Source of the DNA: Sphaerodactylus townsendi
Lineage: Eukaryota
Length of the DNA stretch: 64,000 nucleotides
Assembly (NCBI RefSeq): GCF_021028975.2
Contig: NC_059431.1
Span: 88,784,001 to 88,848,000, forward strand
Direction: 5' to 3'
The position numbers and the translations under genes were made by a program. Of the stretch, positions 22,576-63,497 are shown piece after piece. The notes below the pieces were generated by a model, which did no database searches, had not been told where the DNA came from, and saw only the letters and a list, made by a program, of their open reading frames with translations. The first letter of the stretch is position 1, and each line of letters begins with the position of its first letter.

Positions 22576-22878
22576 CAAGTGGACCATAGTTTGCCCAGGA
22601 TGAGACTGCCAAAGGAAGGGAAGGAGAAAAGCTGATGATGGGAAAGTTTACTGAGTGACATTTGCCAGTCACACACCCATAGACTAACATGAAGGAGTTG
22701 CATGTCCCTTTTTATTGGGGAGAAAGGAAGGTTATAAATGGAGTACAATAAAATGAAGTAAATAACTCTTTCTGGGAAAAGACAGATTATGATGCTTTCT
22801 GCAAGAGAAACACTTAAAGAAGCTGCAAGGGTTGGCCACTCTTGAAATCTAATTTGGATAACTCAGTATATCCTAGTG

Positions 22879-23026
22879 CAGGGGTCTGCAACCTGCAGCT
22901 CTCCAGATGTTCATGGACTACAATTCCCATCAGCCCCTGCCACGATGGACAATTGGCCATAGTGGCAGCGGCTGATGGGAATTGTAGTCCATGAACATCT
23001 GGAGAGCTGCAGGTTGCAGACCCCTG
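22879..23026. mobile_element. 148-bp palindromic hAT MITE (gtctgcaacc subfamily)
   Basis: Inverted repeat with exact TSD tcctagtg at 22871-22878 and 23027-23034. Confidence 0.95.
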
Positions 23027-23242
23027 TCCTAGTGCAAATAGCCAGTCTCAAGGAGAAATGTTCATCAGGTGTGTGGGAATGTCCTTTCTGCATTACTATT
23101 GCTCTTTCCCCAGCCAAGCCCAAAGGAGAATCCCAGCTGTGAATCCTCTTCCACTTGCTTTAAAGCAGATCTTATAAGAGAGGGTGAGCCAGGGAGCTTC
23201 CAGGTTAATCACCTCCATTTTTCTTTTGCAGTTGGTCTAAAT

Positions 23243-23438
23243 CAGGGGTAGGGAACCTGTGGCTCTCCAGATGTTCAGGAACTACAATTCCCATCAGCCT
23301 CTGTCAGCATGGCCAATTATGGCCAATTCCCATCAGCCTCTGTCAGCATGGCCAATTATTCCAATTGGCCATGCTGGTAGGGGCTGATGGGAATTGTAGT
23401 TCCTGAACATCTGGAGAGCCGCAGGTTCCCTACCCCTG
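23243..23438. mobile_element. Palindromic hAT MITE with internal duplication (196 bp)
   Basis: Exact TSD gtctaaat at 23235-23242 and 23439-23446. The segment caattcccatcagcctctgtcagcatggccaattat occurs twice. Confidence 0.95.
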
Positions 23439-24649
23439 GTCTAAATGGATTGCACACAGTGGTGCTTGGGGTGGGAGAGTGAAATTTTTCATGCAAAAAT
23501 GGATGGAGTGGATGGTGTGAGTGTATTAGGTGTGAGTGTAATCTGATATGCTGCTGCCTAGGGCAGGAGTGCAGAAGGAGGCAAAATGTACATACACACA
23601 GTATCATAACCACCACTAGAAGAGGTAGTCTTGACATTGTCTCACTTCAAGTGGGCAATGCTCTGTTGGTTCAGCCCTCCCATCCTCCCTTTCATTCAGG
23701 CTGGGAGGAGACCTGTAGGAGGTAGAAACACATTGCATGATACATTAACATCTTGTCCAGGCATCAGCTGACATTCTGGAATAACTCTCAAACTCTATGG
23801 TAGCACCACAAAGTTTGGGGGAGGGGTGTCAACTGACCCACTGACATTTTTGAGGTTTTGTCTAGGTGTGATGTTAAGGCATCATATAATGTCATGGCTA
23901 CACCTTGCCCTATACCAAAAGGTTTGGGGGGTTCAGGGTGGCAACATGGCAACCATAAGAACAATATTCTAAACCAATTGAGAATTTTGAGATTCTGATA
24001 TATAATCTGGCAACATCTAAACTGAATAGTTTCAAAAAGTGGCAGAGGACAACAGATGGGCCTTCTGTCTGGTAACCAGCCATCAATGAACAAGGTGTGT
24101 TTTCTAGTTGTCTGTCAACCCCACAGGCCTGCTCAAGGTATCCTGTCACCTCAAGCAGAGTAGAATTCTGCTGCTCCCCAGAATGCCATTATTTCCTGAG
24201 CACACATCATGGGGCTCATGAAATAGCTTAAATTTTCTGAGATATAATGTTCTGTTCTTTTCCTTTTTACATTTTCTTTAACATTAATTGACTGCATTAG
24301 CAGACTGGGTTTTAATAGATGTTACAGTTGTTTTCATTCTTATAAACAAAAAGGAGTTTTGTGGCACCTCAAAGACTAACAAATCAAGTGCAGCATAAAT
24401 AACTGCTGAATTAGAATATAACGGGAGATGCAGTTGTGTTGTTTACATTGACTCAACTAACAGCTGCTGTGAATGGGCACTGTGCTTATGTTAAAAATCT
24501 TTAGAATTTTGTATGGCAATGTTACAAAGTGTACTTTCTCCATTTCTATTCACACTTTTCCCTTGTCTGTATTTATTAGTGTAGTTATATCTGCCAGCTG
24601 ATAACTCAGTTCATATTGAGGATCTGCTGTAATCATCATCATCATCATT

Positions 24650-30719: not shown

Positions 30720-31450
30720 ATAGACACTAATGCTGACACAAATGGGACGTCATTTCAGAGTCCATTTACAGGCACTTCAAGAACCATCCTTGCCTTTACC
30801 AAATCTCTTGCATATTTTCCAGTCCAGGGAGTGACAACTTGAATTGCATAGGATATTTCCAAGCTCAAACCCATTTTCAAGGGAAAGCCAAAAACCTCAA
30901 GGTTTATGTACTAAAAACTCAATTCAACAGCCTCCAGAGCAGAGACATAGATGTTGCAATGGGTTTGATCTGTCGCCTAGATGACTTTCCACTAGAATTG
31001 GGAACTTTACAAATACCTTCTGTCAAAATACAGCTAAAAGACAATGTTACACCCTACGGTGTCAGCACTGCTAGGTACATATCAGTACCTTAGCTTCCAA
31101 AAATGAAAGTTGAATTGCAGAATGGTTTGCTGAGGAATGATTGAGCAAATTACAGACTCTACAGATTGGTGGGTTCCGATGGTGCCAGTACCCTAAAAAG
31201 ATGGTTCAGTGCATATCTGTGTAGACTTAAAACAAGTTGTCAAGTGTGAACACTTCATTCTTCCAATCATAGATGACGTACTTCCAAGACTAGCCAGTGC
31301 CTGTGTCTTTTCACTGCTGGATGCTGCAAGTGGATTTTGGCATATTTGCTTGGAGTCTGAAAGTGCAAAACTAACTTTCATTACTCCTTTTGGCCAATAT
31401 TTTTTCACAGATTGCCATTTGGACTTTCCAGCACTCCAGAGTTATTCCAG
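30720..31450 (+). mobile_element. Ty3/Gypsy pol fragment (protease-RT junction and RT N-half), decayed
   Basis: TDWWVPMVPVP, KDGSVHICVDL, EHFILPIIDDVLPRL..VFSLLDAASGFWHI.L..ES.KLTFITPFGQYFF (ORF 31209-31589). Upstream IQLKDNVTPY..AR.I.VP. Confidence 0.85.
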
Positions 31451-31606
31451 AGATATGACCCACCAGTTACAGTGTGCAAACCAGTACAGATGCCACCATA
31501 TTTATGCTACTGCTAAGTATCTACAACATATGCATCAAATGTCAAGTGCTTTAATTATAACTAAAGTGCAAAGAGTGAACAAAGTGTAAAGTGCAAGAAA
31601 CAATAA

Positions 31607-33155: not shown

Positions 33156-33800
33156 AAGGGGCTTCTCTCTCTCTCTCTCTCTCAGGTAATTGCTGCAGCC
33201 ACCTGAACTTTTGTTGCCATTGTCTACTAGGAGGGGTAGGACCCCCCAGCTGTTCTTCCAAACATTGAGGCCTTGTCTCAGTGTTTCCTGCTTCCCTATT
33301 CCTGGGCACTATGAGACAATGTATTCACTGGAGGAATATCCTCTCACCAGTTACCAGCTTTCCCCCTCCTGGAGCCCACTTTTTAAAAATAATATGCCCA
33401 AGACAGTGGAGGGCTGTATGGTACAGAGAACCTCTACCAGCATCTAAAGTTTAAAAGTATTTACTAAAACGATAATGTTTACAAGCATACTTTTAGCTCA
33501 GCACCAGAATGAGCAAGGGATCCAAGAGAAATGAGAGAAATGCAGTTCCTCTGACCTTCTTTCTATGCATGTTCTGTCAGAATGTAGGAGTAGCTCTTAA
33601 ACTAAGGATGTTAGAGATCTCTATAGAGTTTCTATTACCTAGAAATCTGCTTCAGCACACTGGGACAACACATGGTCAAAATGGCTACCTTCTCCAGATC
33701 TCAAATAAGAGTTCTGAGAGATCCAGCAAAGAGCTTCCTTCTAGCTCCCTGTAGTTTTATTCATTCCCTTTCTCCACCTACTGACCAGGTCAGCCTAGAT

Positions 33801-33948
33801 CAGGGGTAGGGAACCTGCGGCTCTCCAGATGTTCAGGAACTACAATTCCCATCAGCCTCTGTCAGCATGGTCAATTGGCCATGCTGGTAGGGGCTGATGG
33901 GAATTGTAGTTCCTGAACATCTGGAGAGCCGCAGGTTCCCTACCCCTG
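33801..33948. mobile_element. 148-bp palindromic hAT MITE
   Basis: Exact TSD gcctagat at 33793-33800 and 33949-33956. Confidence 0.95.
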
Positions 33949-35104
33949 GCCTAGATCAAAGAACGTTTTCCTGAATCTCCAGGAATTTCCTTCTCAAAGT
34001 ACTTTCTAGCAATTTGGAACTTCTAAATCTCTGATCCCTGCTTGGAGAAAGGGGAGAGAATTTAACCCATCCCACTGACTCTTGTTTCCTCTGTTAGCAT
34101 TTCTAAAAAGGTGGCAGATTGAGGCTGGAAAGCAATTGAACTGACTTCCCTGATCCTCATGCCCAGAAGGGAAAAATGCTTAAAATGTTCCCTTCAAATC
34201 TCAAGTGGAAACCAGCCATTTCTCCACACACTCTAAGAAGACTGCTTTCCTTTTCTGATTTTACTTTGCCCTCCCTCACCCCCATCCCCCCCCCCCACAC
34301 ACACAATAGCCACCAAAATATGTGTATGTTGTTGCAGGAGTTTTATGGCATTTCAAGATGTGAAGGTCTGTGGATTGCTGTTTTCCTAATCCTTGTGATT
34401 TTCAACATTGTGCACTGACAATTCCATTTCCCCCCACCTGCAAAACAGGATTTACATTTCCTGGCTGTAAATAAGTAGAGGAGTGGGTAACAAAATTCCC
34501 ACCTCACAGAGTGTAGCCATGGTTACCTCCAAAATAGTATGTGTAATTGGTTGACCCAACCACATTGGAGGTTCAAAAAAGGATGGGTTGACTATTGGGT
34601 ACCCTGAAGAAATTGCCTGCAAATGACTGGCTGGGATTGCATTGTGGCATCTCATTGGCATTCAGCACCATGACTGTCGCATCAAGGAGAGAAAAAATTA
34701 CACTAGAGACAGCAAGGTAGAAAAGGTAAAAGGTGAACACTGAGAATTAGCTTTGCTGCAGACTCCTTTTGAAAACAGACTTACAGATAGTTAAAGAATT
34801 GTGAGTTGGAAGTTCTACAGGGATGTGAGAAGGCACCTGGGGCTGCTTCTTATGTCATATGTGTGCACATCTCCACATTCCACTGTTCCTAAGCAGAATG
34901 TGCCCCAGTAATGAAGAACTCATTGCATTAAAGAACAAATCATGAATTTGTTTTCTGCAGCATGGTGTGAGGCTGGAAATGTATTTTCCCTCTTGATACT
35001 TCTTTACAGAAAGTGAAATGGGCAGTGTATGGTTTGTGGTATATACATGTAGAAATTCAAAGATGTTTTTAAAGTGAATCTTTTCTGGTCTGTCCTGCTC
35101 TGGA

Positions 35105-38082: not shown

Positions 38083-38211
38083 CAGGGGCCTCCAACCTAT
38101 GGCCCTCATTGACAGCAATTCCCATCAGCTCTACCAATTGGCCATGCTGGCAGGGGTTGATGAGAATCACAGTCCATGAACATTTGGAGGGCCATAGGTT
38201 GGAGACCCCTG
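38083..38211. mobile_element. Older palindromic hAT MITE of the same group
   Basis: caggggcctccaacctatggccctc...gagggccataggttggagacccctg with an internal deletion. The TSD is degraded. Confidence 0.8.
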
Positions 38212-39419
38212 CTTAAAGTGCAATGGAGCTTGGCCTCTCAGGCTAAAAGATCCCTAGGAAATTAACCCTCCCAAGGATGCATACTTTAGGTACTAATTCT
38301 GATACCATTTGCCCCATCAGCCTAGCACAAGTCTTCACAATGGCTCCAGGATCCAGAGAGGTGAAAATGATTGCATAAACCCTTAAGCTGCTGCCACTTT
38401 GTTTCAGAGGATGAATGTCACTTGCACAGAAAGACAAGCAAGCCTGCACATGCTTTTGTCCCCAGTGTTGCCGAAAACCGCTGTGCACCCAACCCAAACA
38501 AATCACATGATTGGTCTGTCTTCTTGAGCCAGCAGGCTGATTAGGAGCCTCCCATATAGACTGCTTGGTGATCCCTAAAAATATATATTTAAGAATCAAG
38601 AATCAAGAACTGCAGCTTTTCTTACTCATCCAGAAATTGCCTGGATTGAGCATTGGGACTAATGTGGATCTTCTCATTTTGTTCCACCAAGCCAGTATCA
38701 CTGCTACCAATATGGTCAAGCTGGTTCCTTCCCTTCCTCTTTCTAGAGTTGCCAATGAGAAGGGGGGAGGCAAGGGAGGTGACAACCGTAATAGTGTGAT
38801 GGGTTGCATATGGTAAATCCAAAATTTTAATATATAACAAATAGTTTACTATTTGTTTACTATTAGTTTACTATTTATATTACTTTTCTATTTGTGATGT
38901 GTTAAAGTTTTGGGTAATTTATCATATGTAACTTATGAGAATCAATTTTGTCATTAGGCCCTTTTGTCAACTTTCCTGGTTACCCGGTTCTTCTGGACTG
39001 ATGTTTTTTCTTCCATTTTCTGTTTTGATTTTCCATGGAAAAGTAGGAAGTTATTATCAGATTTCTGAAGGAATTGCTGGAAACTATGGTAGAATCATAG
39101 GGAAGCTGACTGATTGGCTGTTAATTTTTTTTTGCCTTACCAAATTTCTTCAGTCAAGCCAGCAGCATTTCTCAGGGAGTATCCTGCCTGGCTGCTGAGT
39201 GATAGATTTGGTTCTTTTCAGACCTTGCTGGCTGAGGTGGAGAGCAAGCCTATGGGGATGTCACTATTTTTGTTACTGGGAAAAGCGTGCAGGCATGAAA
39301 CTTGGCCATACTGGTTACAGGCTTCCTTAGAAAATGCTGAACATTCTTTACTGAACAGAAAGGGATAATACTGGACTGTCCACTTCAAAACTGGACACCC
39401 AGCAATTCTAGCTCTAGGC

Positions 39420-39567
39420 CAGGGATAGGGAACCTGCGGCTCTCCAGATGTTCAGGAACTACAATTCCCATCAGCCTCTGTCAGCATGGCCAATTGGCCA
39501 TGCTGGTAGGGGCTGATGGGAATTGTAGTTCCTGAACATCTGGAGAGCCGCAGGTTCCCTACCCCTG
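39420..39567. mobile_element. 148-bp palindromic hAT MITE
   Basis: Exact TSD ctctaggc at 39412-39419 and 39568-39575. I count two differences from the copy at 33801. Confidence 0.95.
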
Positions 39568-42239
39568 CTCTAGGCCCTTTTCAGTCTAGCTTCAGGGATG
39601 GTTTAAGGACAGAATCATCCTTGGCAGTTCTGATGGGCAATCTCCATTCACAAATGGATAAGGCGAATGCACTTCCATTACCGTTATAGCACATTTCAGC
39701 TTCATTTGCGGCATTAGATCATTTTCTTTTGCTAAAGGGCATGGAGAAATATGTGGGACTTGGTGGGACTTGAAAAGATTGGAACCCTTTTAAATGAATG
39801 GTCCAAATGCAAAAATTGGCCATAAGGGATGAATAGGAAGCATGGGATTTGGTATGGGGAGTGCCATACATTCGAGTAATGTGAAATATGGAATATAGAT
39901 TCCATACATAACACTGGGTGGTAATAGAACCTGCTCTATGATATGCTTCATTAAATTCTTGTATGTGTGCTTCTAAGCTTGCAGGGATGAAGAAAAACAG
40001 CAATTGCAATTGTCCCTAAAATTTTCTGTGCATTTGGTATAGAGGCATATGGGGGCCATATGGTGCTCAGAGGCAAACCCCCCTCCAGGGTCCTCCCCAT
40101 GCAGAGCCTCACTTACTGCAAGTAAGCCCCTCTTACTTGCAAGTCAGGCTTCAGCCCCTTTTCCCAGCCCAGCAGCTGCAGTGCGACTTTCTCTCATGCC
40201 CTGGCTGCTGGGCCAGAAAGAGGCCAGCACGAGAGAGCAGCCCCACATGACCAGATTAGTTGCACCCGGGGATATGGGTAACCCTATGTCCCTGAACAAA
40301 TACACCACTGATTCAGTAACTGCAGCCTGAAATTTCCTAAACTTATTTAGAGATAGAGAATGCTCACAAGAGCATGTGGGAAATGTGTGTGTGTGTACAT
40401 AAAAGCTAAAGTTTTAGCCAAAGACCAACACTGCCCCCCTAAGTATTCCCTTCTCTCCATAACCCAGATTGTTTTGTGCCAATCTAACATGTACATGCTT
40501 GTGTTGCAAGAGAAAGAAAAGTGACCATGAAGCAGCAGAGAATGTTGGAGCTTAGCAAAAGGGCAACAAGGCTGCCTACAGGAAACATCTGGCACTGAGC
40601 CAGAAGTGGCTGTACCCACATATTGGAGTGTTGGGGAGAAGGACAAAAGAGACAAAGAAAGAGCAAAGCAAGACACTGTGGTGCCATTTCAGGCCTTCAA
40701 AGGATGTAAGATATAATTTCCATCATTAGCAGAGCTTTCTTGCACACAACTAAATTTGGTCAACTTTGAGAGCAGTGTGAATGAGGCCAGCCAAAGAGCT
40801 TAAGTGACTTCAATAAAGCTTTATTCCATTTAAAGAATTCACTGCTGGATGTGAAGGCTATGGGACCAGAGCCCTGCCTTAAAGTCTGATCAACCCTGGG
40901 GTATGAGGTCAAGCGACCACAAGTCTAGTTTTGTACCTGTCAGAGTGGTGAGCTGTAATTCATATCTGTGTGAAATCCCAGGGGGTACTATGTGGTACTG
41001 AAGCTCAGAATGTACCTTTGAAGGTGATTTGGCTCTGAGATCTGAAGAAGCCTTTCTAGACCTCATTCATTCAAACATTTATAGGCCACCTTTCTGTAGT
41101 TAAAGATTCAAGACAGTTGGAAAGGCAAAAGAAGAAACTATATATGTTTGATTGTGGCAAGTTTTAATTGGTTGCCTGTCAATCATTAATTATATTTATC
41201 CTGCTTTAGATAGAGACTGCATGCTAAAATCTGAAGTTGTACATGGCATCCAGATCTTACTTTGAAATATTACTAGCATTATTTAATTTGTAGCAGTAGC
41301 TGTGGTTTCTCTTCCTTAAAACCAAAAATCTAGTTCATTAATCCTTGATTTTTATCTGTATCCTTTTTTACACATGTGATTTTTCACACCAAGCTTCTCA
41401 CTTCATGCAAAGGGCAGGAAGACAAGAAAAATGTCTTGGCAATTTGAGAAACAGTGATCAAAACTAGTAGCTATCTTAAATCAACAGGAGTTCAGTGCTA
41501 GTCTTTTGTAATAACAAGAAATAAGCAAAGTACCTCTTGCTCAAAAGAACTATTTTGTGTAAGGCTTGACTTTTGAGGTCTATGAATTGATGTAAAAATA
41601 TTCCTTTGATCTTATTTCAGCAATTTTCCCTGAATCCAAAAAATGTCAGCGGAATATGCAATAAAATAAATTGGGATATAAAACCATGAAAGCATTAGGC
41701 AGTTTTAAAAAATCAGATTCTAAAAATGTACATAATTTTCCTAAAGCAACTGAACATGTGCAGTTGTTGGGAAGTCACTGGTATAGATCCACCTTGGTTC
41801 TCCAACAATTTCCCTCTGTGTGTTCTGTCAAGTTCGTCATATATTTTTTCCCATATTTTATGTGAATAGTAACTATATTATGGTTCCTTGCGCATTGAAT
41901 TCTGGGTGTCCCTGGATATTTACGTCAACTCTGCATCTAAGAGACTTCTGGGGGAAATTGTAATCTAAATAGGAGCACCTGTGAAGTGCTTCAGGGCCTT
42001 CTCCTCACTGGGGGTGTTTGAAGTGGAACACCAGAAAAAAAAGGAACATTTATCATCCTCTCACCACTCATAGATAGTTACATTTGACAGGTGAATCTTT
42101 CCAGAGTTCTACCAGGGATCTGCAGGTTCTGAAACCATCTAGGATAGTGAGGTAAAGGCAGGCTATAAAAGCCTATAAGATCAGGCTTCCTGTTTTTATC
42201 TTTATCCTTGTTATCTTTTTTCCTCATTTTCTTCTTTTT

Positions 42240-45821: not shown

Positions 45822-46125
45822 ATGTTGAACAATTTAACAGGAAAATTCATTTACAATATAAAACTTTGAGCAATTGACCTTATATACAGTTTTTTAAATA
45901 TTCTGAATAGTCCTGATGAAGATTGATAGCAGATATGGGCATTTGGCCTTATTTTAAGCAAATTTATCTGCATTTGTAATTTGTCATACAAGTATGTAAT
46001 ATTGGATAACTAGATACCAAAAGCAGCAAAGGTACAGTAGGCCATCAAAGTGTCTTCAGGAATGCAAAATGGGTCCCAGGTACAAAAATTGTTGCCAGTA
46101 GACGTGTGGCTAGAGGAAACTAAAA

Positions 46126-47624
46126 GGGTTTCCTGGAGGACACATTGGCTTTTGACCCCTTCCAGTCCGGCTTCCGTGCTGGGCATGGGACGGAGACCGT
46201 TCTCGTCGCCGTCACAGATACGCTCCGTATGCAGCTTGACCGAGGCGGATCGGCGCTGCTGGTATTATTAGATCTTACCGCAGCATTTGATGTGGTCGAT
46301 CACGACCTTTTGACCCACCGCCTGGCCACTTCCGGAGTGCGGGGCACTGTCCTTCAGTGGATTGTCTCATTTCTCCGGGACTGGAGTCAGCAAGTGTGGT
46401 GCGGGGATCAGGCCTCCCGAAGGTGCCCGCTTCATTGCGGTGTGCCTCAGGGTGCGCTCCTATCCCCGCTGTTATTTAATATCTATATGCGACCCCTTGC
46501 TCAGTTGGTACAGAGATTTGGGCTGATCTGTCACCAGTATGCTGATGACACTCAGCTCATTCTGTTGATGGAGAGGGGAGCGGCCGCCGCCCCTGCAGCT
46601 CTGCAGCATTGTTTGGAGGCGGTTGCTGGTTGGTTGCGACAGAGCAGGTTAAAACTAAACCCATCAAAGACGGAGATCCTCTGGCTAGGCCGCGAGGGGG
46701 AGGTTGGGGATTTTCAGCCGCCGGTGTGGGAGGGGGCCTCATTGGCACCGGCCCCCTCCGTTCGCAGCCGGGAGGTCCACCTGGATGTGTCTCTTTCAAT
46801 GGTGACCTAGGTGGCCCATACAACAGGTTGCGTTTTCCACCTCCGTCAGGCCCGGCGGCTGGCCCCTTCCTCTCCCAAGCGGACCTGGCCACTGTGATCC
46901 ACATAGCAGTCACCTCAGGCTAGACTATTGTAATTCGCTCGCTGGCCTGCCCTTGCGCCTGATTCGGAAGTTAAAGCTGGCCCAGCATGCGTGGCGCGTT
47001 TACTTACAGGAGGTGCCTACCGTGACCATATTCAGCCTGTACTCCGCCAGCTGCACTGGCTTCCAGTGGAATTCGAATCATCCACAAGGTATGGGTGTTA
47101 ACCTTTAAGACGCTTGCAGCGACCTGGGACCCTGCGTACCCTCGCGGGACCGCCTTACCCCATATGTCCCTACTACGGCCTCTGCGTTCAGCAGAGGCCA
47201 ATTACTAGTGGTTCCCAGCCCCTCAATGACCACGGCTGGCCTCCACCCGAACACTCTTCCTCAGCTGTCGGGCCCTGCGGGATCTTGGAGAGTTCAGCAG
47301 GGCCTGTAAAGATTTCGAAGTTGTTCCACCGGGCTTTTGGGGAGGCCAGCTGTTGAGGGTGAGCGCCCTCTTTGTCTTTCCCTTTTAACATCTTGGGAGC
47401 TGTAATTAGATCTACCGCCCCCTCTCTGGGAGGGGTTTTTATTGTTAGTTTTAAATCCTGGACGCCAAGTGGAATGCTGTAGTTTCATGTTTTAAATATG
47501 TATATTTATATTGATTATTTATTGTTATTATTGTTTCTGGAATATTATTTTGTTGTTCACCGCCCAGAGCCCTCAGGGGATGGGGCGGTATACAAATGTA
47601 ATTATAAATAAATAAATAAATAAA
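46126..47624 (+). mobile_element. L2-clade LINE, 5'-truncated, young (CpG-rich): RT domain to 3' tail
   Basis: ORF 46145-46810 reads DPFQSGFRAGHGTET..LLDLTAAFD..GVPQGALLSPLLFNIYM..YADDTQL..LKLNPSKTE. A frameshifted C-terminus follows (LDYCNS, QLHWLPV), then the 3' UTR and a (TAAA)n tail. Confidence 0.93.
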
Positions 47625-48458: not shown

Positions 48459-48668
48459 CTGACCTGACCTGAATGGTGCAGGTTAGCCTGATCTTGTCAG
48501 AGTTCAAAGGTTAAGTAGGGGTCAGCCCTGGTTAGAACTTGAATGGAAGACCTCCAAGGAATACCAGCCTTGCCATTCAGAGGAAGCCAATGACAAATCA
48601 CCTTTGCCTTGAAAACGCTGCTGGCTTGCCATAAATTGGCTGAGATTTGAGTTCACTTTACACACACA
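48459..48668 (+). mobile_element. 5S-derived SINE
   Basis: cctgatcttgtcag..ggtcagccctggttagaacttgaatggaagacc (5S-like), then gaggaagccaatgacaaatcacc and a (CA)n tail. Confidence 0.7.
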
Positions 48669-50684: not shown

Positions 50685-51209
50685 GGCCGTTTCTGCACGG
50701 GCATTTAATGGCGGCCTGGAGACGGCAAAAACGCTGTCTCCAGGCCACCATTTGCACAGGGGGCGCAGCTGCATCGCAGCCGTGCCGCCCTCGCGCCACC
50801 CGCCCGTCGCGAAGCCGGCGTTTCCCCAGAGCGCTTGGAAGCGCTCTTTTCGGGGAAACGCTGCCGTGAAGCCGCTGCCGAGCGAACGGCAGCGACTTCA
50901 CGACGCCTCCACCCCCGCCTTGTTCCCAGCACTTACCTTGTCCCCTGGCCTCCGGCGTGTCGCCGAGGCCTGGGGACACGCCCCCTGCCCTGTGCTGCTG
51001 GAGCAGGCGCGCAGGGCCAGGGGGGCGTGTCCCCAGGTCTCGGCGACGTGCCGGAGGCCCGGGGACATGCCAGGTCGGCCGGGCACCGGTGCTCCGAGGC
51101 GCCGGCTGCCCGGCTGTTTCCAGGACCGTCCACGCGGACAGTCCCAGCGTCGTCGGGTCGGCGCAAAATGCGCCGACCTAGCCGTTTCCGCCTCCATGCG
51201 GAAACGGCC
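50685..51209. mobile_element. CpG-rich PIF/Harbinger non-autonomous element
   Basis: TIR ggccgtttctgcacgg...ccatgcggaaacggcc. 3-bp TSD TAG at 50682-50684 and 51210-51212. Large internal inverted repeat at 50940-51067. Confidence 0.88.
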
Positions 51210-51801
51210 TAGGAGTGGTGATCCTACAAAAAAGGAACAGGAGTGGGTTTTCGTATTCTGTACAAAGGTCAGAAAATTACAGAAAAATCCAGCTCAGGAA
51301 AATCAACCTGTTGCCAAGACAGATTAGATAGATCAATAGATCTGAGGAAAATCTTCTTAGGAAAAGAAGCACTGCAATTTGTTTTGTTTTAAAACAACTT
51401 CATTTATTTATTTAATGAAACATCTTATGGAGGAAACCTGAAATTGTAACAACTCAGAGAGAGAGAGTGGCTGAACTCAAGTAAAGCAATAACTTGTGTC
51501 AAACACAGCAGAAAGCTTCATTAAACTAAAAACCAACTTGCTGACTTACCTGATTACAGTTGTAAATATGTTGACCTTGCCAACATCTTTGGTGTTCCTG
51601 AAAATAAAACCTCTTATGTTTGTTTAACTTTTTGAAAGTACCCAAAGTCTCTTGTACCTTTCACTTTAGGAAGTTTGACAAGAAAAGAAAAGGGTTTTGG
51701 GAATTTTATTTTTATAATATAATCCTCTGTCTCAATTGAGCAGTTCATTGTTCTCTAATTTAGTTCACTCATTTTTGTAAGGTAGAAATAAATATCCTTC
51801 A

Positions 51802-52038
51802 GGCCGTTTCTGCACGGCCGTAAGGGCGCCTCCATGCCGGCAGGAATTCCGCCGGTGTGGAGGTGGAGGCCGTTTTAAGGGTTGTTGTTTAGGGCGGCCT
51901 GACACCGCCCTGGGGGAGGGGGAGCGCAGTCAGGTCGGCGCTGCTGCAACGCAGCAGCGCCGCCTGTGCGAACGGCGGCCTGGGGGCGGTGTTTTTACCG
52001 CCCCCAAGCCGTTGTTTTTGGCCCGTGCGGAAAGGGCC
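51802..52038. mobile_element. CpG-rich PIF/Harbinger MITE
   Basis: TIR ggccgtttctgcacgg...ccgtgcggaaagggcc. 3-bp TSD TCA at 51799-51801 and 52039-52041. Confidence 0.88.
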
Positions 52039-52819
52039 TCAGTGCCAAAAACATTGGGTGGCTGATCAGTGAGCTGTGACAGTGGCAGTTAGAATTTTGG
52101 CAGGAAAACTCCAGAGAGCACCTTGCCAGGACAGGAAAGAGGAAGTTGTCATATGTGGCCATCAGCCTATGTTCCAGTTGCAGGGGCACAGGATGGTACA
52201 AACTTGTATGCCCCACCTTACCACTCATACGAGAAATCCTCAGTATCCAGAGAGTTTGCAGTTAAATCCCTGTAAGTAGCCGGTGTTGGCAGCCTTTGTC
52301 TCTGCTGATATGAATGTTCATTCTCAATGGCTGCTTTCCTTCACAGCTTTCAGAACATTCTGGTTTTGTTCATGGAATTTGAGAAGAATTGGATGATAAA
52401 GAGACCCTTTTGCAACTGTCTCGGGAGTTCCTAATGAAATTGTCTCTCTCCTAATTAAATGATTTCTGTCTTTGAATCTTTAAAATGTCTTTGTTTAAGT
52501 TTGACGTCTTGCGTGGCTAATAATTATATATTGGCATCCTTTAACTAGAAGGACTATTGATAGTTAATGATCCAGTCCAAAAAGCAGTCAATATGGGAGG
52601 CTCATACCTGACCAAATGGCTTGCCCAAATGAATGGAAATTTTCTAAGAGGCAGTTGATAGAGGCAGGGGGGAAAGGCAGCAGAGAAGCAGCTGGTTGGA
52701 AGGTAGAAGTTCTTCAGGAATAAGTGAAGATCTGAGGGGCTGAAAGCAAGGAGGATTCACCATTAAAGAGAAGGAAGGAGAATATAGCCAAGGAAGTATC
52801 TTTATGCTTTTGGAACAGC

Positions 52820-53976: not shown

Positions 53977-55273
53977 ATGACATTTGATGAATTTCTAACT
54001 GAACACTTAGTAATCATTCATGTACAGAGAAAATAAAATGTAGCCCATAAAGTCACTCTAATTAGTCAATTACAGTAGAGCTTTATTTTAGCTTCTATTA
54101 GCATAAGTCAAGAAGAGCACCTAGTAATAATGAAAAAAGTCAAAAAGAAGGGCAATATAAAATGTCAGGAGTAAGCAACTTAAATTTTGGAATTTCTCAA
54201 AAATATTAAATAGGAGCTTTGTGGTGATTTTTTTTAAATTTAAGCAAGTATCTTGTTTCTTTCAAAATGAATGACAACATGTGTCACTAATCACAAAATG
54301 CAGAAGAGTTGGAAGATATATTTGGAATGTATGAAGTGCAGATCACGAAGTCCATTGACCTGAATCCCACTGAAAATTTCCATTAATGGTAGAAATTGTT
54401 GGTCAGAGGGGTGGGACTTCCTTCCTTCCCACCTTCTGCTGTGGAGCAAACATGCCCCAAGTGCTATTCCTGGAGACCTTTGTGAACAGCAGGAATGATC
54501 TCAGGCAAAAATCACCACACTATTCCATCAGTAGAAATTTTTCACAGATCCAATTCATTGTTTCACCCACATGATGAAATGTGAATTAGAGATGGTTTTG
54601 AATGTCTCATCCACAGTTTTCATTTTGGTTGTGCTTCTCCATTTTGCAAAATTCTATTTTTTGTGCCATTTTCTGTTTTCTTGTATCATCCCCTCCCCAC
54701 ATATAAACATTTTTCATCGTTGTAAGCACTACTGATTATGTGTACATTACATGTATAAAAAGTATCATTTGGATGAATGTATACTGTATGAGTTGTGTCA
54801 AAAATACACCTTGCACCAAGAATATCCTATACACAAAACTATTAAGCTAACAGGAAAAAGAAGAGAACCAAAACACATTCATCTGGCTTTGTCTTTGTGG
54901 TCTTTCCTTTTCAGGCTGAAGGACTCTATCTCAGTTTATACTCATGTGGTTGTCACTTAAGTTCCATCTACACACTGCAAAGCCTTTATATTTGTAGGAG
55001 AACCAAATGAGATGTTTGTATCACAAGTCCAATGAGAGTTTTGTGCCTTCCAAATACTCACCAGTTCTTTTCTGTTTGTGGCACATATGTAGAAGTAGCT
55101 TTAGTCTCCCCACTACACAACATTTTTTCCTCCTCAGACTGCCCCATGCAGTCACTAGTTGGACAGTTTGAGAATGTAGAATTGGGTGGGGGGAGCTACA
55201 TCTGCTTCTCTGCGGTTGTGGTGATGTGGTGACGAACAGGAAAGAGCCAGTGTTCTTCTGGGAGGCACAAAAC

Positions 55274-55629
55274 TGAGAAGGAGCTACTCAGCAGCGGTCG
55301 TGGTAATAGCAGAAGCAGTTAAGGAAAAGAAAACACAGGAACCCAGGCGTTGTTCACTTCAAAGAACAGAAGGGTTTATTCCTTGTTTCCAAAGTCACAA
55401 AACAGTCTGACAGAGTGCAGCGCAGCAACTGTATAACCAAAGCACGCATAGACCAAACTGTTCTGTGCATACATATAGAGACATTCAACCAATCAGGGAG
55501 CAGTGATGCAATCACACTAGATGTGCTTAGTCATGGTTGCATCACCCACTGAAACTAGGTGAAAGGTAGAGGATTGCATCAACCAAGCTGTCAAGTAGAT
55601 TTTGGTGATCTAACTGTCAAGTCCTAACA
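55274..55629 (-). repeat. Copia 3' LTR
   Basis: Direct repeat of 59646-60001 with 2 substitutions. AATAAA on the minus strand at 55375-55380. Confidence 0.97.
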
Positions 55630-55638
55630 CCCCTTCCC
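55630..55638 (-). promoter_or_regulatory. Polypurine tract (GGGAAGGGG)
   Basis: Immediately precedes the TG of the 3' LTR on the minus strand. Confidence 0.85.
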
Positions 55639-55645
55639 AAAACTA

Positions 55646-58600
55646 CTATGACAGCACCTTTATTACTTTCAGCTGTTCTAACATTGTCTGATGCTTATTC
55701 TGTGACACAGCTTTAGTAAACACATCAGCAACATTTCGCTCTGTTTCAACATAGGCGAGTTGAATAGTTCCATTCTGTACTAGCTCTCTAACATTCTGGT
55801 ACTTTACTCCTATGTACTTAGTTCTTGTCTTCATGTTTGCAGTCTCTGCTAATGCGATGCAGGTCTGTGAATCATCAAACACGATTATAGGCTTCTTTAT
55901 GGATTCACCTAACTCAGTTAGCAGTGTCTCAACCCAAAGTAGTTCTGAACATGTTTCAGACAATGCGCAGAACTCAGCCTCAGAAGTGGACAGGCTGATT
56001 GTGGTCTGTTTTCTAGAACTACTAGCTACATCACCATACTGAATGACAAAACCAGTACAGGACTTCCTGTCACCACAGTCTGCAAATGAACTATCTGCAA
56101 TAGCACGCAACTCTGTGCTTTGCGTGGACTGGATCAGTAAACCATGATCAGCAGTTCCTTTTAAGTACCTAACCACACGTTTAACACCCTCCCAATCATG
56201 TTTGCTGGGCTTGCTAGCTTTTCTGCTTAGTGCACTAACAGCAAACGCTATATCTGAGCGTGTCCAGTTAGATATATGTAGGAGACTACCTACAACAGAT
56301 TTGTACAGTTCAGGATTGTTGAATTCCTCACTTTCACTAACTTTCTGAAAGTCTAGGGACATTGGTGTTGTGGCAACCCTTGCCTTTGACAATCTAGTCT
56401 TGCGCACCAACTCATTTATTTTGTTCTTCTGACTTAGGAGATAACCTTGCTTTGGTGTAGATATGACATCAATACCCAAGTAATGTTTGATAAAACCTAA
56501 GTCCTTTAGAACATACATGTCACTGAGTTGTTTGTACAATTTGTCAAATTCTTGTGTAGATCCTTGCTGTAACAATAACACATACTTGTCATCAACACGC
56601 ATAAAGAGAAGAATGACTCCTCTTGATTCTTATTAGTTCCCTGATGTATAAGCATGCATCAGCAACAGACTTCTTAAACCCCAGTTTAAGCAATGTACTG
56701 TTCAGTTCATCATACCCAAAGTTAGCACCAGCTTGTTTTTTAAAACCATACAAAGAGACGATGCAAAAAAGAGATAAACGAGTATTTGGGTCTGCTTCTT
56801 CATACCCTGGTGCAGGCTTCAGATAAATTGCTTCCTTCAATTTAGCATTTAAAAAAGCACACTGGAAGTCATAATGCTTCACCATAAAGCCTTTCTTACT
56901 AGCTAATGCAAGCATAGCTCTCAAAGACTCAGGTCGTGCCGTGGGAGAATAGGTCTGGTCATAATTCAGCAAACGGTCTTGTACAAACCCCTGGGCGACA
57001 AGCCTTGCTTTATACCTTTGAGTACCATTTGGCAACTCTTTCCTCCGAAACACCCACTTCGACCCAATTGCCTCCTCTCCTTCTGGCAAAACAGTCTTGG
57101 TAAACACCTGTTGTTGCACTAAGGTTTTATACTCCTCAGCCATAGCTTCACGCCAGAGCTCTATTTCAGCTGGCGGTAGCTTTAACATCTCTTTATAGGA
57201 GCTTGGCTCTGATACCTGTGCTTGACAAACATAGACGTTTTGAGAAAACCCATACCTGTCAGGAGGTATCCCTTTTGTAGACCTATCAGAGATACGAGGC
57301 ACCTTAATTTGTTTCTCATCTTCTTCACTACTGCTAGTGTCACTGTCTTGCAGCCCTTCCCCCTTCTCAGCTTTCTTCCTTGGACGCTTGCCACTACTGG
57401 AAGCAGTTGGTTGACCTTGAGCTGCTGCAGGCTGCTGCCTGGCAGTTCTGTTAACCCCTTCATGCTGAGTGAAAGGTAGCAAAACCTCTGTGTTAGCATG
57501 GATAGTTCCCATCCTGCATGCTTTTCAAAGTTTGCACTTCGAGAGATCACAACCTTCCCATAGGAATGTGCAAAACGAAAACCTTTTGTCCCAGATTCAT
57601 AACCAAGAAACCTCAATCTCACCCACCTCTGATCCCCCTTCCGCCTTTGGGCGTCAGGTACCAGCACATTGGCATAACTGCCAAAGATATGCAAATGATC
57701 CAGAGATGGATCTTTCTGGTACAGCAAAAAATAAGGAGTCTGGTTCACACTAGAAGACCATACTCTGTTGGTCAAGTATGTGGCAGTGTTCACAGCCTCA
57801 GCCCAGAAATGTTCAGGCATGTTGGCATCCAGAAGCAAACAGCGTTTTATAGTATGTAGAACCCCAAATTTCCTCTCAGCAACCCGTTTTCAAAAGGAGA
57901 GAAAGGGTTGGTCTTTCTGTGACGTATGCCTTTCTTTCTCAACCAGTTCTGGAACCCAGAACCCAGGAACTCACCTCCTCTGTCTGTTTGGAGGCAAGCC
58001 ACTTTATGTGAAAACTGTCTTTCCACCATTGCCACCCACTCTTTAAACCTTGGGTAAGCCTCAGCTTTGGATTTCAGGAAAAGACTATAGGTGAACCTGC
58101 TATAGTCATCCACCAAAACCATGTGGTACTTTGCATGCCCCTGACTGGGTTGAAATGGTCCAGAAAGGTCTGCATGAATTAAACCAAATGGCCTATCTTA
58201 CTGTCTGGTGCTTTTCCTTGTAGAAGGAAATGCCTTTACTTTGGCCTTACTGCACACAGTACAATCAAGATAATTAGGACAGGACTTGGCTTTCAAAACC
58301 ACACAACCTGGACATGTTTCCTAGCACTTTGAAACTGGCATGTCCTAGCACACGGTGCATATAATGAATACAGTCATCATGCATAGGTTTGTTAACTGCA
58401 TTAGCCATGCTTTGTCCTACAGCATTGTTATTTAGCTGATAAAGGTTATTCTGCAGTATACCTGTGGCACAGACTCTCCCTTGTTTCTTAATAGAACAGG
58501 TCTGCCCACTAAATTCCACCACATAACCCTCAGCTGTCAATCTTACAACGCTTAACAAACAAAATTCAAATGAAGGCACAAAATATACATTACTCAGAGA

Positions 58601-59568
58601 GCCATTTAGAGCAGGAACAAATGTTGATCCTTGTAGTTGCACCTTTGCTGCGGTGCCATCAGCTAAACAAACATGGTCAATAACAGGTTGGCGCACGTGG
58701 TCAGTAAGGAGACTTTCCTTATTCACTATATGCTCAGAACAAGCAGAGTCAATGAGCCATAGTGAGTTGGAGTCCTTCTCCTTGCTTGTTACCAGGAAAG
58801 TAGATGCTTGTGATTCCTGTCTGTTAGCCCTCGCTTTCCAAGGTGGTTTGTTCTTCCTCTGCGCCACTTTTGCATTTGTACAGGCCCGTGCAAAATGGCC
58901 AGGATTCCCACAACGAAAACATTTTTTCACAGCACAGGAAGTAGGGACGGCAGAATCAGCAGGAAAATCCCTCTGCGATGATTTCTCAGCCGTGCTCTCA
59001 AGCTGGTAGTCCCTCTGCTTCTGGTGGTCTAGCAGCTTGGCAGTGACGTAATCCAAAGTCAGCGTAGATTCCGCTATGCTGTTTATACTGCATACCGACT
59101 GGTCCCAGCTGGTATCCAGCGACGAAAGCAACAGATAAACTTTGTGGGAGTCTTCAAACTGTAAACCTCGATCAGCGAGCTGTGCAAACAGTTCACGCAT
59201 CTGCTTCAGATGCTCAAACACAGATCCTCCTGGCCTCAGTTTGAGATTGTACAGTTGTCTTGTGAGGAGGACCTTTGCCCCTGCCGACTCACATTGATAG
59301 ATGCCTTTCAAAGCCGCCCACGCCTTGGCTGCAGTCTCAGCTTCTCGCAGATAAAACCAACTGTGAGTTTTCCACTGCTAGCACAATAGACGCATACGTG
59401 CTTTTTCATCTGGTAACGTCGCTCAGCAACTGTAGGGGCCGCTGGAGGGGTAGAGATAACATTCCACAGGTCCTCACGAATGAGATAGCTCTGCATCTTC
59501 TGGCTCCAAGCCACATAGTTATGCTCATTCAGCCTCTCAAACAGCAAGCCGGACATAGTGGAAGCCAT
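55646..59568 (-). CDS. Copia gag-pol polyprotein, split into several frames in this sequence
   Basis: Gag LNEHNYVAWSQKMQSYL..LW; zinc knuckle CFRCGNPGHFARAC; protease WLIDSACSEH; integrase HRVLGH, HADLSGP, VDDYSR, QTDRGGEF and GTKGFR; RT GSKWVFRRK..YKARLVAQGF, DFQCAFLNA and xVDD; RNase H ADSSFA, STSEAEF and NVADVFTK. Spread over ORFs 59308-59601, 58274-59311, 57847-58122, 57182-57838, 56592-57512 and 55646-56602. Confidence 0.9.
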
Positions 59569-59630
59569 GGCAATAGCTGAGTCACACAGCACGCAGTACA
59601 CTCACTGTTACTCACGAGTAGCACGTAGGA

Positions 59631-59645
59631 GCTGGGCCCATAACC
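59631..59645 (-). promoter_or_regulatory. Primer-binding site GGTTATGGGCCCAGC (internal tRNA-iMet fragment type)
   Basis: Abuts the CA of the 5' LTR. Complementary to the anticodon-arm region of initiator Met tRNA, as in Drosophila copia. Confidence 0.85.
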
Positions 59646-60001
59646 TGAGAAGGAGCTACTCAGCAGCGGTCGTGGTAACAGCAGAAGCAGTTAAGGAAAA
59701 GAAAACACAGGAACCCAGGCGTTGTTCACTTCAAAGAACAGAAGGGTTTATTCCTTGTTTCCAAAGTCACAAAACAGTCTGACAGAGTGCAGCGCAGCAA
59801 CTGTATAACCAAAGCACGCATAGACCAAACTGTTCTGTGCATACATATAGAGACATTCAACCAATCAGGGAGCAGTGATGCAATCACACTAGATGTGCTT
59901 AGTCATGGTTGCATCACCCACTGAAACTAGGTGAAAGGTAGAGGATTGCATCAGCCAAGCTGTCAAGTAGATTTTGGTGATCTAACTGTCAAGTCCTAAC
60001 A
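59646..60001 (-). repeat. Copia 5' LTR
   Basis: Direct repeat of 55274-55629. Confidence 0.97.
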
Positions 60002-60221
60002 AAAACTTCCCTTCATGTGTGATACAAACTCCTTGTCTCTTTCCTTAGTAAGCACAAGAACTTTGTAATGAGTAGATGTGGCCTTATTGAATTACTCATG
60101 TATGTAACTTGCACGGACCCAGCCATTAACTCAAACACATCTGACACTTTGACAGAGGACACATTGCAAAGGGAAAAAGAACAACAGCTACCTGTATCTG
60201 AGCATCCTCCGTGTCAGCTCC

Positions 60222-60470
60222 AGCCCTTTCCACACAGGGTAATTAAACTGGGATAAACCTGGTTAAAAAAACTCAGGTTGGGTGGGAACTTCACATGGAT
60301 CCTGATCCTAATGTGGAACCGCTCCGCGTTTCCCCTCCCAATCGGGTTTTTCGACAATCATGTTTTGTGCGATTCATTTGTTTTAATGTTGCTGACAGCC
60401 ACGGCTTAGTGAACCGTCATGCGTTAAAACAAGAGAATCGCACGTAACACAATTCTCGAAAACCCCTTCC
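60222..60470. mobile_element. Harbinger-like left end with internal hairpin
   Basis: Terminus agccctttccacacagg, and an imperfect inverted repeat at about 60344-60465 (gggtttttcga..gtgcgattc.tttgttttaa / ttaaaacaagagaatcgcac..tcgaaaaccc). Confidence 0.55.
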
Positions 60471-62004
60471 CTGGTTCCCATCTGCAGTTGTATGTTTATA
60501 CTTCTTGCATTGTTTTTAATTGTATGATCCACGTCAAGCCTCAGCAGGTAAAGCAAAAGGAAATAAAATAAAACATCATGCAACATTAAAGTAAGCACAG
60601 TGCTTTTTTAATGGATATGGTTCACACAGCAGTGAGGATCCTCAAGTCATGAGGGATTGAAAATGCAATCTTGTTCAGAATTGGGACAGCCTATTGAAGC
60701 CCATGGGTTCAGACTTGAAACAGTTCTACATAGGATTGCATTGTCAATTATTTGTATTAATGTGCAAACAACTCAGTTGTCTCAAGTCTTTCCTCCTACT
60801 TATAAGACACTGAAATCGAGAAGACATTGTTTGATCTGCTAGGGGGGTTTGTAAGACTGGAAGGTCTTGCTTGAGGAGAACAACTTTCAGGCCCTGCAGT
60901 TCTTTGGCCATGCGTTGCTGTCTTCCAAGTTTCTTGCCATTTTCTTTCCACAATATGTCCTTTACCATTTTTGCTGCCTTTCCTCCCACTAACATAGTTT
61001 TCCCTAATCTCAGCAGAAGCTCTCCCACTGTCTCCCCCCTCCTTTTTGCCCTGTTGTATTATCTTCCTGTTTTGAACTCTTCTTGTGGCTGTTGTTGTCC
61101 TGGATTTTGCCAGGCTAAACCCAAACAACATGTTTTCTTTCTCTGCTGTGATTTAATCTCAATAATACTGTTTGCAGGAACAGCAAGTGCATACTTTATC
61201 TCCTGCTTGCGGAGCTGATCTGGTGAGCGACAATATATATATTTTCATCTCTTCTTTATTTCAGAGTAAAAAGTTTCACAAGGGCAAATTGACTTTCAGG
61301 GTAACATGGCACAATGAGTTTCTATCTTCATTTATTTGAGCCCTGCCACTCCATGTCTCTTCATTACACTCGGGTCAGCAACTTTATCCCCGATTTTAGA
61401 ACTGAAATTCCCTTGTAATCAGAAGCAATGTTGGGCAAATTTTCTTCCCTGGCATAAATCCATTGTAGTCTAAGGACTTGCACTAGGGATGAATTTGTCT
61501 GAGGGTGTTTTGGCATAGTATCAATCAGTTACTAAAGTTGGCTCCAGCTCTCTTCATTTTCATCACCCTTGGCTGCTCTCGCTGATACTTACATTTGAGT
61601 GGTAGTCAGATTTATTGGCGCTCCTTTGAGGGGGTTTAGAATAAACTTAACACCAGTTGGTTTAGAACTCACTGGGGGATTGATGCCACAGAGTGCTAGG
61701 TCCCCAGTAAAAGCCAGTCAAGCAGCTCTGCCTGTTAAGCCTGGGAGTCACTCTAAAGTTAATAGAATTTTGTGTGCTGAACTTTAAGCACAAGAGTACT
61801 TCAAAAAGTCAATCAACACCTTGTTTTGGCATTTCCTTTGTTGTGTTTTTGAAAGCCTGTTATAATAATATTCAGGCATGGTGCTAGGCTGAGCCATGAT
61901 AATTGAACCTGCACGGTCAAACCTCTGAATATTAGTGCTAGAAGGCAACATTGGGAGAGGACTTGGGCTTTGTACCCTGTTTGTTGGCCTTCCAGGTTAG
62001 CCAC

Positions 62005-62978: not shown

Positions 62979-63200
62979 CTTGGCCTGGATGATCCAAGCT
63001 AACCTAATTTCCTCAAATCTTTAAAAAAGCAGGGTCAGCCCTGGTTAGTACTTGGATGGGAGACCCCCATGGAAGTCCACAGTTGCTATGCAGAGAAAAC
63101 GAATGGCAAACCTTTTCTATTTGTCTCTCTCCTTGAAAACCCTACTAGGTTGCTGTGACTCAGCTGTGGCTTGATGGCACCATGCAGACACTCACATGCA
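62979..63200 (+). mobile_element. 5S-derived SINE
   Basis: agcagggtcagccctggttagtacttggatgggagacc nearly matches vertebrate 5S rRNA (intermediate element and C box). Followed by an aatggcaaacc RTE-type tail. Confidence 0.8.
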
Positions 63201-63259: not shown

Positions 63260-63497
63260 GATCTGTGCGACGTCCCCCCCCCCCAAACCCAGGTTTTTTT
63301 TATCTTGCTACACCAGTGGTGGCAAACCTTTGGCACTCCAGATGTCATGGACTACAATTCCCATCAGTCCCTGCCAGCATGGCCAATTGGGCATGCTGGC
63401 AGGGGCTGATGGGAATTGTAGTCCATAACATCTGGAGTGCCAAAGGTTCTCCACCACGTTCCTACACCCATGTCTACTGGCCTGTGTGGAAGGGGCC
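63260..63497. mobile_element. Harbinger-like right end, interrupted by a hAT MITE
   Basis: Terminus cctgtgtggaaggggcc|TTA. The subterminal sequence is a reverse-complement relative of 60266-60301. Confidence 0.5.
63314..63459. mobile_element. Palindromic hAT MITE (gtggcaaacctttggcactc subfamily)
   Basis: Inverted repeat. The flanks tgctacac and tcctacac match at 7 of 8 positions. Confidence 0.9.

What the first reader, a model, noticed from the sequence alone, without database searches (positions are those of the whole stretch)
55269..60006. Complete, very recent Ty1/Copia insertion in an amniote genome
Seen: all cis elements are intact (LTRs identical at 354 of 356 bp, TSD, PBS, PPT) and every gag-pol domain is present. 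Established: Copia elements are abundant in plants, fungi and insects, but scarce in vertebrates and essentially absent from mammals and birds. Inference: an active or recently active squamate Copia family, possibly uncatalogued, and a candidate for horizontal acquisition. It is the most functional-looking system in the window.
Basis: partly seen in the sequence, partly recalled or inferred. Interest (0 to 1): 0.7.

Follow-up and report, generated by a model that had tools for sequence, protein, structure and literature searches.

The report
Ordinary young lizard Copia retrotransposon copy
This is a real, young insertion of a Copia-type jumping gene, one of many copies of a family whose nearest relatives are other lizard and snake Copia elements, so it is ordinary for this group; its coding frame is broken as assembled, likely mostly through sequencing error, and it likely starts copying itself from half a tRNA.

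Summary
The cis anatomy is confirmed. The element is on the minus strand at 55274-60001, with 356-bp LTRs identical at 354 positions, TG..CA ends, a 5-bp TSD, a PBS and a PPT. Domain order is Copia. 'Most functional-looking' fails: gag-pol is split over six open frames and the RT motif is disturbed. None of 27 two-LTR copies has an unbroken frame. Indels are about tenfold rarer near element ends than inside and are insertion-biased, which points to unpolished long-read error (about 70%). Contigs support both junctions in the host species. Two close relatives (flanks 1.6-2.5% apart) lack the LTR at this site but carry the family at high depth. In an RT/RNase H tree the family groups with other Copia families of the same genome (98/96), inside a squamate clade (99/95). 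Nothing supports recent horizontal transfer. A 2025 survey found Copia in 23 of 24 squamate genomes, all Mtanga clade, and a recently mobile corn-snake Copia is published. One addition: the PBS pairs with the anticodon arm of host tRNA-iMet (half-tRNA type), and the motif occurs at 401 sites.

The parts
55269..55273 (+). Target-site duplication, left copy (AAAAC)
55274..55629 (-). 3' LTR, 356 bp, TG..CA
   Evidence: 354/356 identical to the 5' LTR
55630..55638 (-). Polypurine tract (9 purines) abutting the 3' LTR
   Evidence: same tract in most two-LTR copies
55649..56629 (-). Open frame: end of reverse transcriptase plus RNase H; its start lies in the disturbed patch
   Evidence: RVT_2; RNase H acidic motifs; Copia homologues
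56563..56780 (-). Disturbed patch holding 13 of the 21 indel places private to this copy; covers the RT catalytic motif; likely assembly error
   Evidence: family contigs of 7 DNA runs and RNA reads differ from the window at the listed indel places they cover
56595..57524 (-). Open frame: linker and most of the reverse transcriptase
   Evidence: RVT_2 E=3.5e-33
57185..57889 (-). Open frame: integrase C-terminal part with SH3-like domain
   Evidence: PF25597
57850..58197 (-). Open frame: integrase core
   Evidence: rve E=5.7e-13; first two acidic motifs
58277..59377 (-). Open frame: gag, CCHC knuckle, protease (DSAC motif), pre-integrase region
59308..59598 (-). Open frame: gag N-terminus (DUF4219)
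59631..59645 (-). Primer-binding site, 15 nt, complementary to nt 25-39 (sequential count) of host tRNA-iMet, the anticodon arm: half-tRNA type
   Evidence: host tRNA-iMet genes L047, L048
59646..60001 (-). 5' LTR, 356 bp, TG..CA
60002..60006 (+). Target-site duplication, right copy (AAAAC); in organism C the flank contig begins matching exactly here with no LTR before it

Best explanation
This is one young copy of a multi-copy Ty1/Copia LTR-retrotransposon family that groups with other lizard and snake Copia elements and was likely inherited vertically, likely copies itself from a half-tRNA primer, and has a coding frame that is broken as assembled, likely mostly by sequencing error. Mechanism: the 5' LTR would drive a genomic RNA and one gag-pol frame (inferred from unbroken frames of about 1,325 codons in sister families). 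Minus-strand synthesis would start from a 5' fragment of tRNA-iMet cut in the anticodon stem (complementarity shown, cleavage inferred), and plus-strand synthesis from the PPT. Integrase left a 5-bp duplication (shown). This copy most likely inserted after the host split from organisms C and D (LTR absent at the site there) and before organisms A and B separated or were sampled.
For: Cis features and domain order. PBS is the exact 15-nt complement of the anticodon arm of the genome's own tRNA-iMet; Hemivirus-type elements start at nt 40 in the anticodon stem-loop (PMC1181622, passages). Copy number: 353 LTR and 228 interior first-look candidates (40 scored each), 64 exact LTR-end+PBS sites; 22 of 26 other two-LTR copies have matching TSDs. 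Junctions seen in organisms A (two samples) and B, LTR absent in C and D, family at high depth in all four. Tree of 38 rows: family plus 6 other own-genome Copia sequences form a clade (UFBoot 98/SH-aLRT 96) inside a clade with Podarcis-cluster, Rhineura and Pantherophis proteins and one unnamed protein (99/95). Error signature in 22 copies: 1.1 indels per kb per copy in the outer 180 bp, 3.1 in the inner LTR half, 12-16 inside; 1,074 extra-letter against 273 missing-letter events. Copies with at most 2 LTR substitutions carry 2-164 interior indels. This copy has 21 private indel places against 20 private substitutions, and the indels are clustered (p=0.0002).
Against: No read-level proof for this locus: all DNA runs were contigs that collapse the copies and drop rare variants, so the breaks may be partly real. 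LTR mismatches and interior indels correlate weakly across 27 copies (Spearman 0.42, p=0.03), as ageing would also give. Private substitutions are not enriched near the indels (4 of 20, p=0.54). The upper 95% bound of changes expected since insertion is 41, which equals the 41 private differences counted. Squamate branches in the tree are long and sampling is thin (4 named proteins, no amphibian or fish references). Two own-genome rows are degraded, one with a 2.26 branch. The PBS motif was not found in the supplement text of either corn-snake paper, so half-tRNA priming cannot be generalised to all squamate Copia.
Confidence: 0.82

Rival explanations
1. The interior damage is real. Defective copies are repeatedly copied in trans (each round resets the LTR clock), or reverse transcription is unusually indel-prone, so this copy was dead on arrival.
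For: 0 of 27 two-LTR copies have an unbroken frame. The weak positive correlation of LTR mismatches with interior indels. Contigs cannot show single-copy variants reliably.
Against: The breaks are private to each copy, not shared: nearest interior neighbours are at least 1.5% apart, a star pattern. Indels avoid the LTR ends, where no coding selection acts. Up to 168 indels in 4 kb with a 4:1 extra-letter bias. High-depth family contigs and RNA reads lack the listed breaks. No G-to-A excess as in APOBEC editing (605 G>A, 496 A>G, 469 T>C, 409 C>T).
Confidence: 0.12
2. The family entered this lizard lineage recently by horizontal transfer.
For: No protein above about 43% identity outside this genome in three large searches. 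Runs labelled organisms E and G hold the element at about 98% identity with no cover of the 1.3-kb flank; their identity is coded.
Against: The closest relatives are families in the same genome (51% aa; clade 98/96), then other squamates (99/95). The family is abundant in close relatives C and D. E and G have depth 3-7.6 and the LTRs collapse into a circle with no flank branches listed, as expected for low-coverage or trace DNA of a multi-copy repeat (inference).
Confidence: 0.04
3. The insertion is a current, polymorphic event from a family that is active now.
For: 6 of 27 two-LTR copies have LTR pairs without a substitution or gap. 645 RNA reads of organism D lie across the element.
Against: This insertion is present in two samples of organism A and in organism B. 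Its LTRs differ at 2 sites (0.56%, 95% range 0.07-2.0%). The RNA reads come from both strands at low depth and fit read-through or DNA background.
Confidence: 0.15

Closest known systems
Mtanga-clade Copia of Lepidosauria (PMC11889832: passages, section 13, supplement file 3; tuatara Mtanga-like element, PMC7116210, passage)
   Same: Copia domain order; squamate host type; many families per genome (the survey lists 16-492 copies in three gecko genomes and says only Mtanga is found in Lepidosauria). In my trees the family groups with squamate Copia, next to mosquito and Trichuris proteins, taxa in which the survey also lists Mtanga.
   Different: No direct comparison with the Mtanga reference or the survey's family sequences was possible (file not readable). 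The survey's main text does not mention PBS or tRNA (0 hits).
Corn-snake Copia inserted in OCA2 and CLCN2 (PMC4657000, PMC11948899; passages and supplement term searches)
   Same: Recently amplified squamate Copia family restricted to close relatives (85 copies; two inserts differ by one base).
   Different: 5,832 bp against 4,728 bp here. It has documented phenotypic insertions. The half-tRNA PBS motif was not found in the supplement text (inconclusive). A Pantherophis Copia protein is only 37% identical.
Hemivirus-type Pseudoviridae: Drosophila copia and 1731, yeast Ty5, Osser (PMC1181622, PMC6317226; passages)
   Same: PBS complementary to the anticodon stem-loop of tRNA-iMet, ending at canonical nt 40; single gag-pol frame in sister families.
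   Different: Vertebrate host. Hemivirus is defined by primer use and does not follow the RT tree (PMC1181622). Priming was not tested biochemically here.
GalEa-clade Copia (PMC3587641; passages)
   Same: Copia order; occurs in aquatic vertebrates.
   Different: GalEa PBS pairs with the 3' acceptor end of tRNA-Met; this element's does not.

Membership tests
Ty1/Copia superfamily (Pseudoviridae) | Direct LTRs with TG..CA ends and a 4-6 bp target-site duplication | tested here: met
Ty1/Copia superfamily (Pseudoviridae) | Domain order gag-PR-IN-RT-RNase H (integrase before RT) | tested here: met
Ty1/Copia superfamily (Pseudoviridae) | RT of RVT_2 type; RT/RNase H closest to Copia proteins | tested here: met
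Ty1/Copia superfamily (Pseudoviridae) | PBS behind the 5' LTR and PPT before the 3' LTR; no env frame | tested here: met
   the RNase H frame ends about 16 bp before the 3' LTR
Autonomous (functional) Copia copy | Unbroken gag-pol frame with intact catalytic motifs | tested here: not met
   six frames, RT motif disturbed in the assembly; the true allele is undecided
Hemivirus-type (half-tRNA primed) Copia | PBS complementary to the anticodon stem-loop of tRNA-iMet, ending at nt 40 | tested here: met
   15 of 15 nt against the host's tRNA-iMet genes; definition from PMC1181622
Hemivirus-type (half-tRNA primed) Copia | cDNA covalently primed by a cleaved tRNA fragment | not testable with these tools
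   needs particles or small-RNA and strong-stop sequencing
Mtanga clade | RT/RNase H clusters with the Anopheles gambiae Mtanga reference | tested here: inconclusive
   reference not available; the family sits in a squamate clade (99/95), with mosquito and Trichuris clades as unresolved neighbours
Mtanga clade | Only Copia clade reported in Lepidosauria | tested here: inconclusive
   literature statement; membership follows only by inference
GalEa clade | PBS complementary to the 3' end of tRNA-Met | tested here: not met
Recent horizontal transfer | Near-identical relative in a distant taxon and tree discordant with host tree | tested here: not met
   eukaryote genomes could not be searched at DNA level, so coverage is limited

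The most novel reading that the evidence does not exclude
A lizard genome carries a radiation of Copia families (401 exact LTR-end+PBS sites, several LTR types) that prime reverse transcription from a 5' half of initiator tRNA, a mode characterised in flies, yeast and algae. An amniote germ line would then have to cut tRNA-iMet in the anticodon stem and supply it to recently active retrotransposons, which makes the source of half-tRNA primers testable in a vertebrate. I found no paper stating this for squamates; these searches miss most subscription papers and Repbase notes.
Probability: 0.35. Interest if true: 0.4.

Novelty: new member of a known kind. Interest (0 to 1): 0.18.

Why it matters
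As an element it matters little: young Copia insertions are expected in lizards and snakes. Two points have some use. First, the half-tRNA type PBS shared by many Copia families in this genome points to an old priming mode at work in an amniote. Second, the assembly appears to garble repeat interiors while leaving LTR ends clean, so calls of 'intact' or 'dead' and interior-divergence ages for young repeats in this genome are unreliable. The site is also a presence/absence marker that separates organisms A and B from C and D.

Tried and rejected
Horizontal transfer: three protein searches found nothing above about 43% identity and the trees place the family among squamate Copia; rejected. Programmed frameshifting as the cause of the split frame: the breaks are private to this copy and sister families have one frame; rejected. 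APOBEC-type hypermutation: no G-to-A excess; rejected. Misassembled insertion: junction contigs in A and B; rejected. Expression: no RNA holder listed. One RNA run of organism D (about 6% read) gave 645 reads on both strands and none on the flank; with about 160 copies this cannot be told from background, so it is not used as evidence. Organisms E and G: element covered, flank not covered, low depth; inconclusive. ARAGORN found no tRNA at 3 of the 8 pattern sites tested; Rfam found tRNA at 2 of 7 loci. No host protein-coding exon was identified near the insertion (12 ORFs scanned, 2 LINE fragments hit) and no Rfam family in the window, so gene context is unknown. The GC-rich stretch at 50685-51210 is a repeat, not a promoter island. 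The careful 64-row tree did not finish and returned a quick tree; a 38-row careful tree replaced it. Tuatara supplement search for Mtanga or PBS found nothing. Earlier-findings look-ups near the site, by words and by sequence found nothing on this family.
Full report
Observation. The element lies on the minus strand at 55274-60001. Its LTRs (55274-55629 and 59646-60001) are 356 bp, identical at 354 positions and bounded by TG..CA. The 5-bp duplication AAAAC flanks it at 55269-55273 and 60002-60006. A 15-nt PBS follows the 5' LTR directly and a 9-purine tract precedes the 3' LTR. Pfam finds DUF4219, Copia gag, a CCHC knuckle, a protease-type beta-barrel, integrase core, SH3 and RVT_2 in the order gag-PR-IN-RT. 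RNase H had no Pfam hit but its acidic motifs are present. As assembled, the copy cannot encode a working polyprotein.

The family. In the window's own genome the LTR gave 353 first-look candidates and a 1-kb interior piece 228 (40 scored each). An exact LTR-end+PBS 22-mer occurs 64 times. I fetched 40 loci chosen for similarity to this copy, so the sample leans young. Of these, 26 had two detectable LTRs, 22 of the 26 with matching TSDs, and 2 were solo LTRs with matching TSDs. Counting this copy, 19 of 27 have at most 2 substitutions between their LTRs, and 6 have identical LTR pairs. The family amplified recently. None of the 27 has an unbroken frame (longest 888 codons).

Are the breaks real? 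Probably not, for the most part. Comparing each copy with two natural copies that agree, interiors carry 2-168 indel events in patches, while most LTRs carry none or few. Over 22 copies (five left out: the two comparators and three with poorly delimited LTRs), indel density is 1.1 per kb per copy in the outer 180 bp, 3.1 in the inner LTR half and 12-16 inside. Extra letters outnumber missing letters 1,074 to 273. Decay after insertion should not spare non-coding ends, whereas short-read polishing of a long-read assembly works only near unique flanks (inference). This copy differs from most of the 32-36 covering copies at 21 indel places and 20 substitutions; 13 of the indels lie in 56563-56780, and the clustering is significant (p=0.0002). 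High-depth family contigs from seven DNA runs, and RNA reads, differ from the window at the listed indel places they cover. Against this reading: contigs drop rare variants; LTR mismatches and interior indels correlate weakly (rho 0.42, p=0.03); substitutions are not enriched near indels (4 of 20, p=0.54); and the upper bound of changes expected since insertion is 41. I put about 70% on error explaining most breaks.

Age and distribution. Nineteen runs were listed, 12 holding the stretch; I laid 8. Organism A matches the flank without differences and has contigs across the right junction (run X1) and, in a second sample, the left junction (run X3). Organism B also has the right junction. These contigs reach 23-26 letters into the LTR, under the tool's 31-letter bridging rule. 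In organisms C and D the flank contig begins matching at 60002 and 60014, with about 1,340 unlike letters before it at single-copy depth, so the LTR is absent there. That these letters are the left flank is inferred from their length, which fits the left-flank contig of X3. Flanks differ by 31 of 1,958 (C) and 44 of 1,767 (D) positions. The main interior contigs are roughly 100-230 times deeper than the flank in A, C and D; this is a rough indication only, as the tool warns. So the family predates the split from C and D and this insertion most likely postdates it. LTR divergence is 0.56% (95% range 0.07-2.0%). This is young but shared between samples, so not demonstrably current. Organisms E and G show the element at depth 3-7.6 with no flank cover, which is inconclusive. 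The RNA run of D (645 reads, both strands) cannot separate transcription from background.

Priming. The PBS is the exact complement of nt 25-39 (sequential) of the genome's own tRNA-iMet genes (2 of 7 loci scanned were tRNAs). By the usual tRNA numbering (my knowledge) this ends at nt 40 in the anticodon stem, the start site described for half-tRNA-primed Hemivirus elements such as copia and Ty5 (PMC1181622, passages). The motif with the LTR's terminal CA occurs 401 times against 0 for the control. Of 20 sampled sites outside this family, 11 gave a tblastn match to Copia RT/RNase H, with several different LTR ends, and 2 have single frames of about 1,325 codons. The genome thus holds several Copia families with this PBS.

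Relatives. Three protein searches returned only Copia proteins, none above about 43% identity. I looked up names for 20 of the best hits. Named ones included a cluster with Podarcis lilfordi members, two Rhineura floridana proteins, Pantherophis guttatus, Anopheles, Aedes and Trichuris. A FastTree tree of 364 rows grouped the family with the squamate proteins (0.96), as did a quick 64-row tree (SH-aLRT 94). In a careful 38-row tree, which used 6 of 8 own-genome segments, the family forms a clade with the genome's other Copia families (98/96), inside a clade with the named squamate proteins and one unnamed protein (99/95). The sister family in the same genome is 51% identical. This is the pattern of long residence and in-lineage radiation, not of recent transfer. 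Sampling is thin, branches are long, and eukaryote genomes could not be searched at DNA level. The host being a squamate rests on this tree and on earlier scan notes that call it a lizard or gecko; I did not test it with a host gene.

What is known. PMC4350176 (passages) lists Copia as present in reptiles and lost in birds and mammals. PMC11889832 (passages, section 13 and supplement file 3) found Copia in 23 of 24 squamate genomes, 66% of all metazoan copies detected, only of the Mtanga clade, including three gecko genomes. It already raises ancient horizontal acquisition by sarcopterygians as an open alternative. Its reference FASTA and tree file cannot be read here and may contain this family. 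A recently mobile corn-snake Copia caused the OCA2 and CLCN2 alleles (PMC4657000, PMC11948899; passages). The tuatara has an abundant Mtanga-like element (PMC7116210, passage).

Verdict. A real, young, ordinary squamate Copia insertion: a new or already catalogued member of a known kind. Horizontal transfer is unsupported, and the 'complete, functional' reading fails for the assembled sequence. The half-tRNA type PBS is the one detail for which I found no squamate report. Interest 0.18.

Noticed in passing
window 50685-51210: CpG-rich, internally palindromic repeat of about 525 bp with 8,102 first-look candidates in the genome (88-92% identity); looks like a CpG island but is a MITE-like repeat. 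A shorter element with similar ends lies at about 51800-52040.
   Followed up: partly
window 60223-60480: Old palindromic repeat of about 260 bp (678 candidates, 73-79% identity) 220 bp from the insertion.
   Followed up: partly
window 9220-9385, 22867-23032, 23227-23454, 33789-33954, 39408-39573, 13789-13909, 38108-38211, 63309-63460: Family of about 160-bp fold-back MITE-like repeats, several near-perfect palindromes.
   Followed up: no
window 46124-46807 (+) and 14303-14674 (-): LINE fragments: RVT_1 reverse transcriptase and endonuclease domains.
   Followed up: no
window 31197-31586 (+): Short open frame that resembles a Ty3/gypsy-type RT start by eye; no Pfam hit.
   Followed up: no
window 48519-48597 and 63032-63110: Repeat that resembles the 5S rRNA internal promoter (recalled resemblance), possibly a 5S-derived SINE; no Rfam hit at gathering score.
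   Followed up: no
protein P0271 (Rhineura floridana XP_061477847.1): Annotated as ATG10 isoform X1 but carries a Copia RT/RNase H region; probably a gene model fused with an inserted Copia, or an exonised element.
   Followed up: no
L041-L046 (e.g. G000:C1:12521318-12521376): Five of seven loci with the 18-nt tRNA-iMet anticodon-arm motif are not called tRNA genes; one has two copies in inverted orientation 41 bp apart. Possibly PBS variants or tRNA fragments.
   Followed up: no
L049-L068: At least six different LTR-end types share the same PBS among 20 sampled sites: several further young Copia families in this genome.
   Followed up: partly
window 55413 (RNA run X17, organism D): 19 RNA reads leave the LTR here and continue into a shortened LTR end plus unlike flank: probably a deleted LTR copy inside a host transcript.
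   Followed up: no
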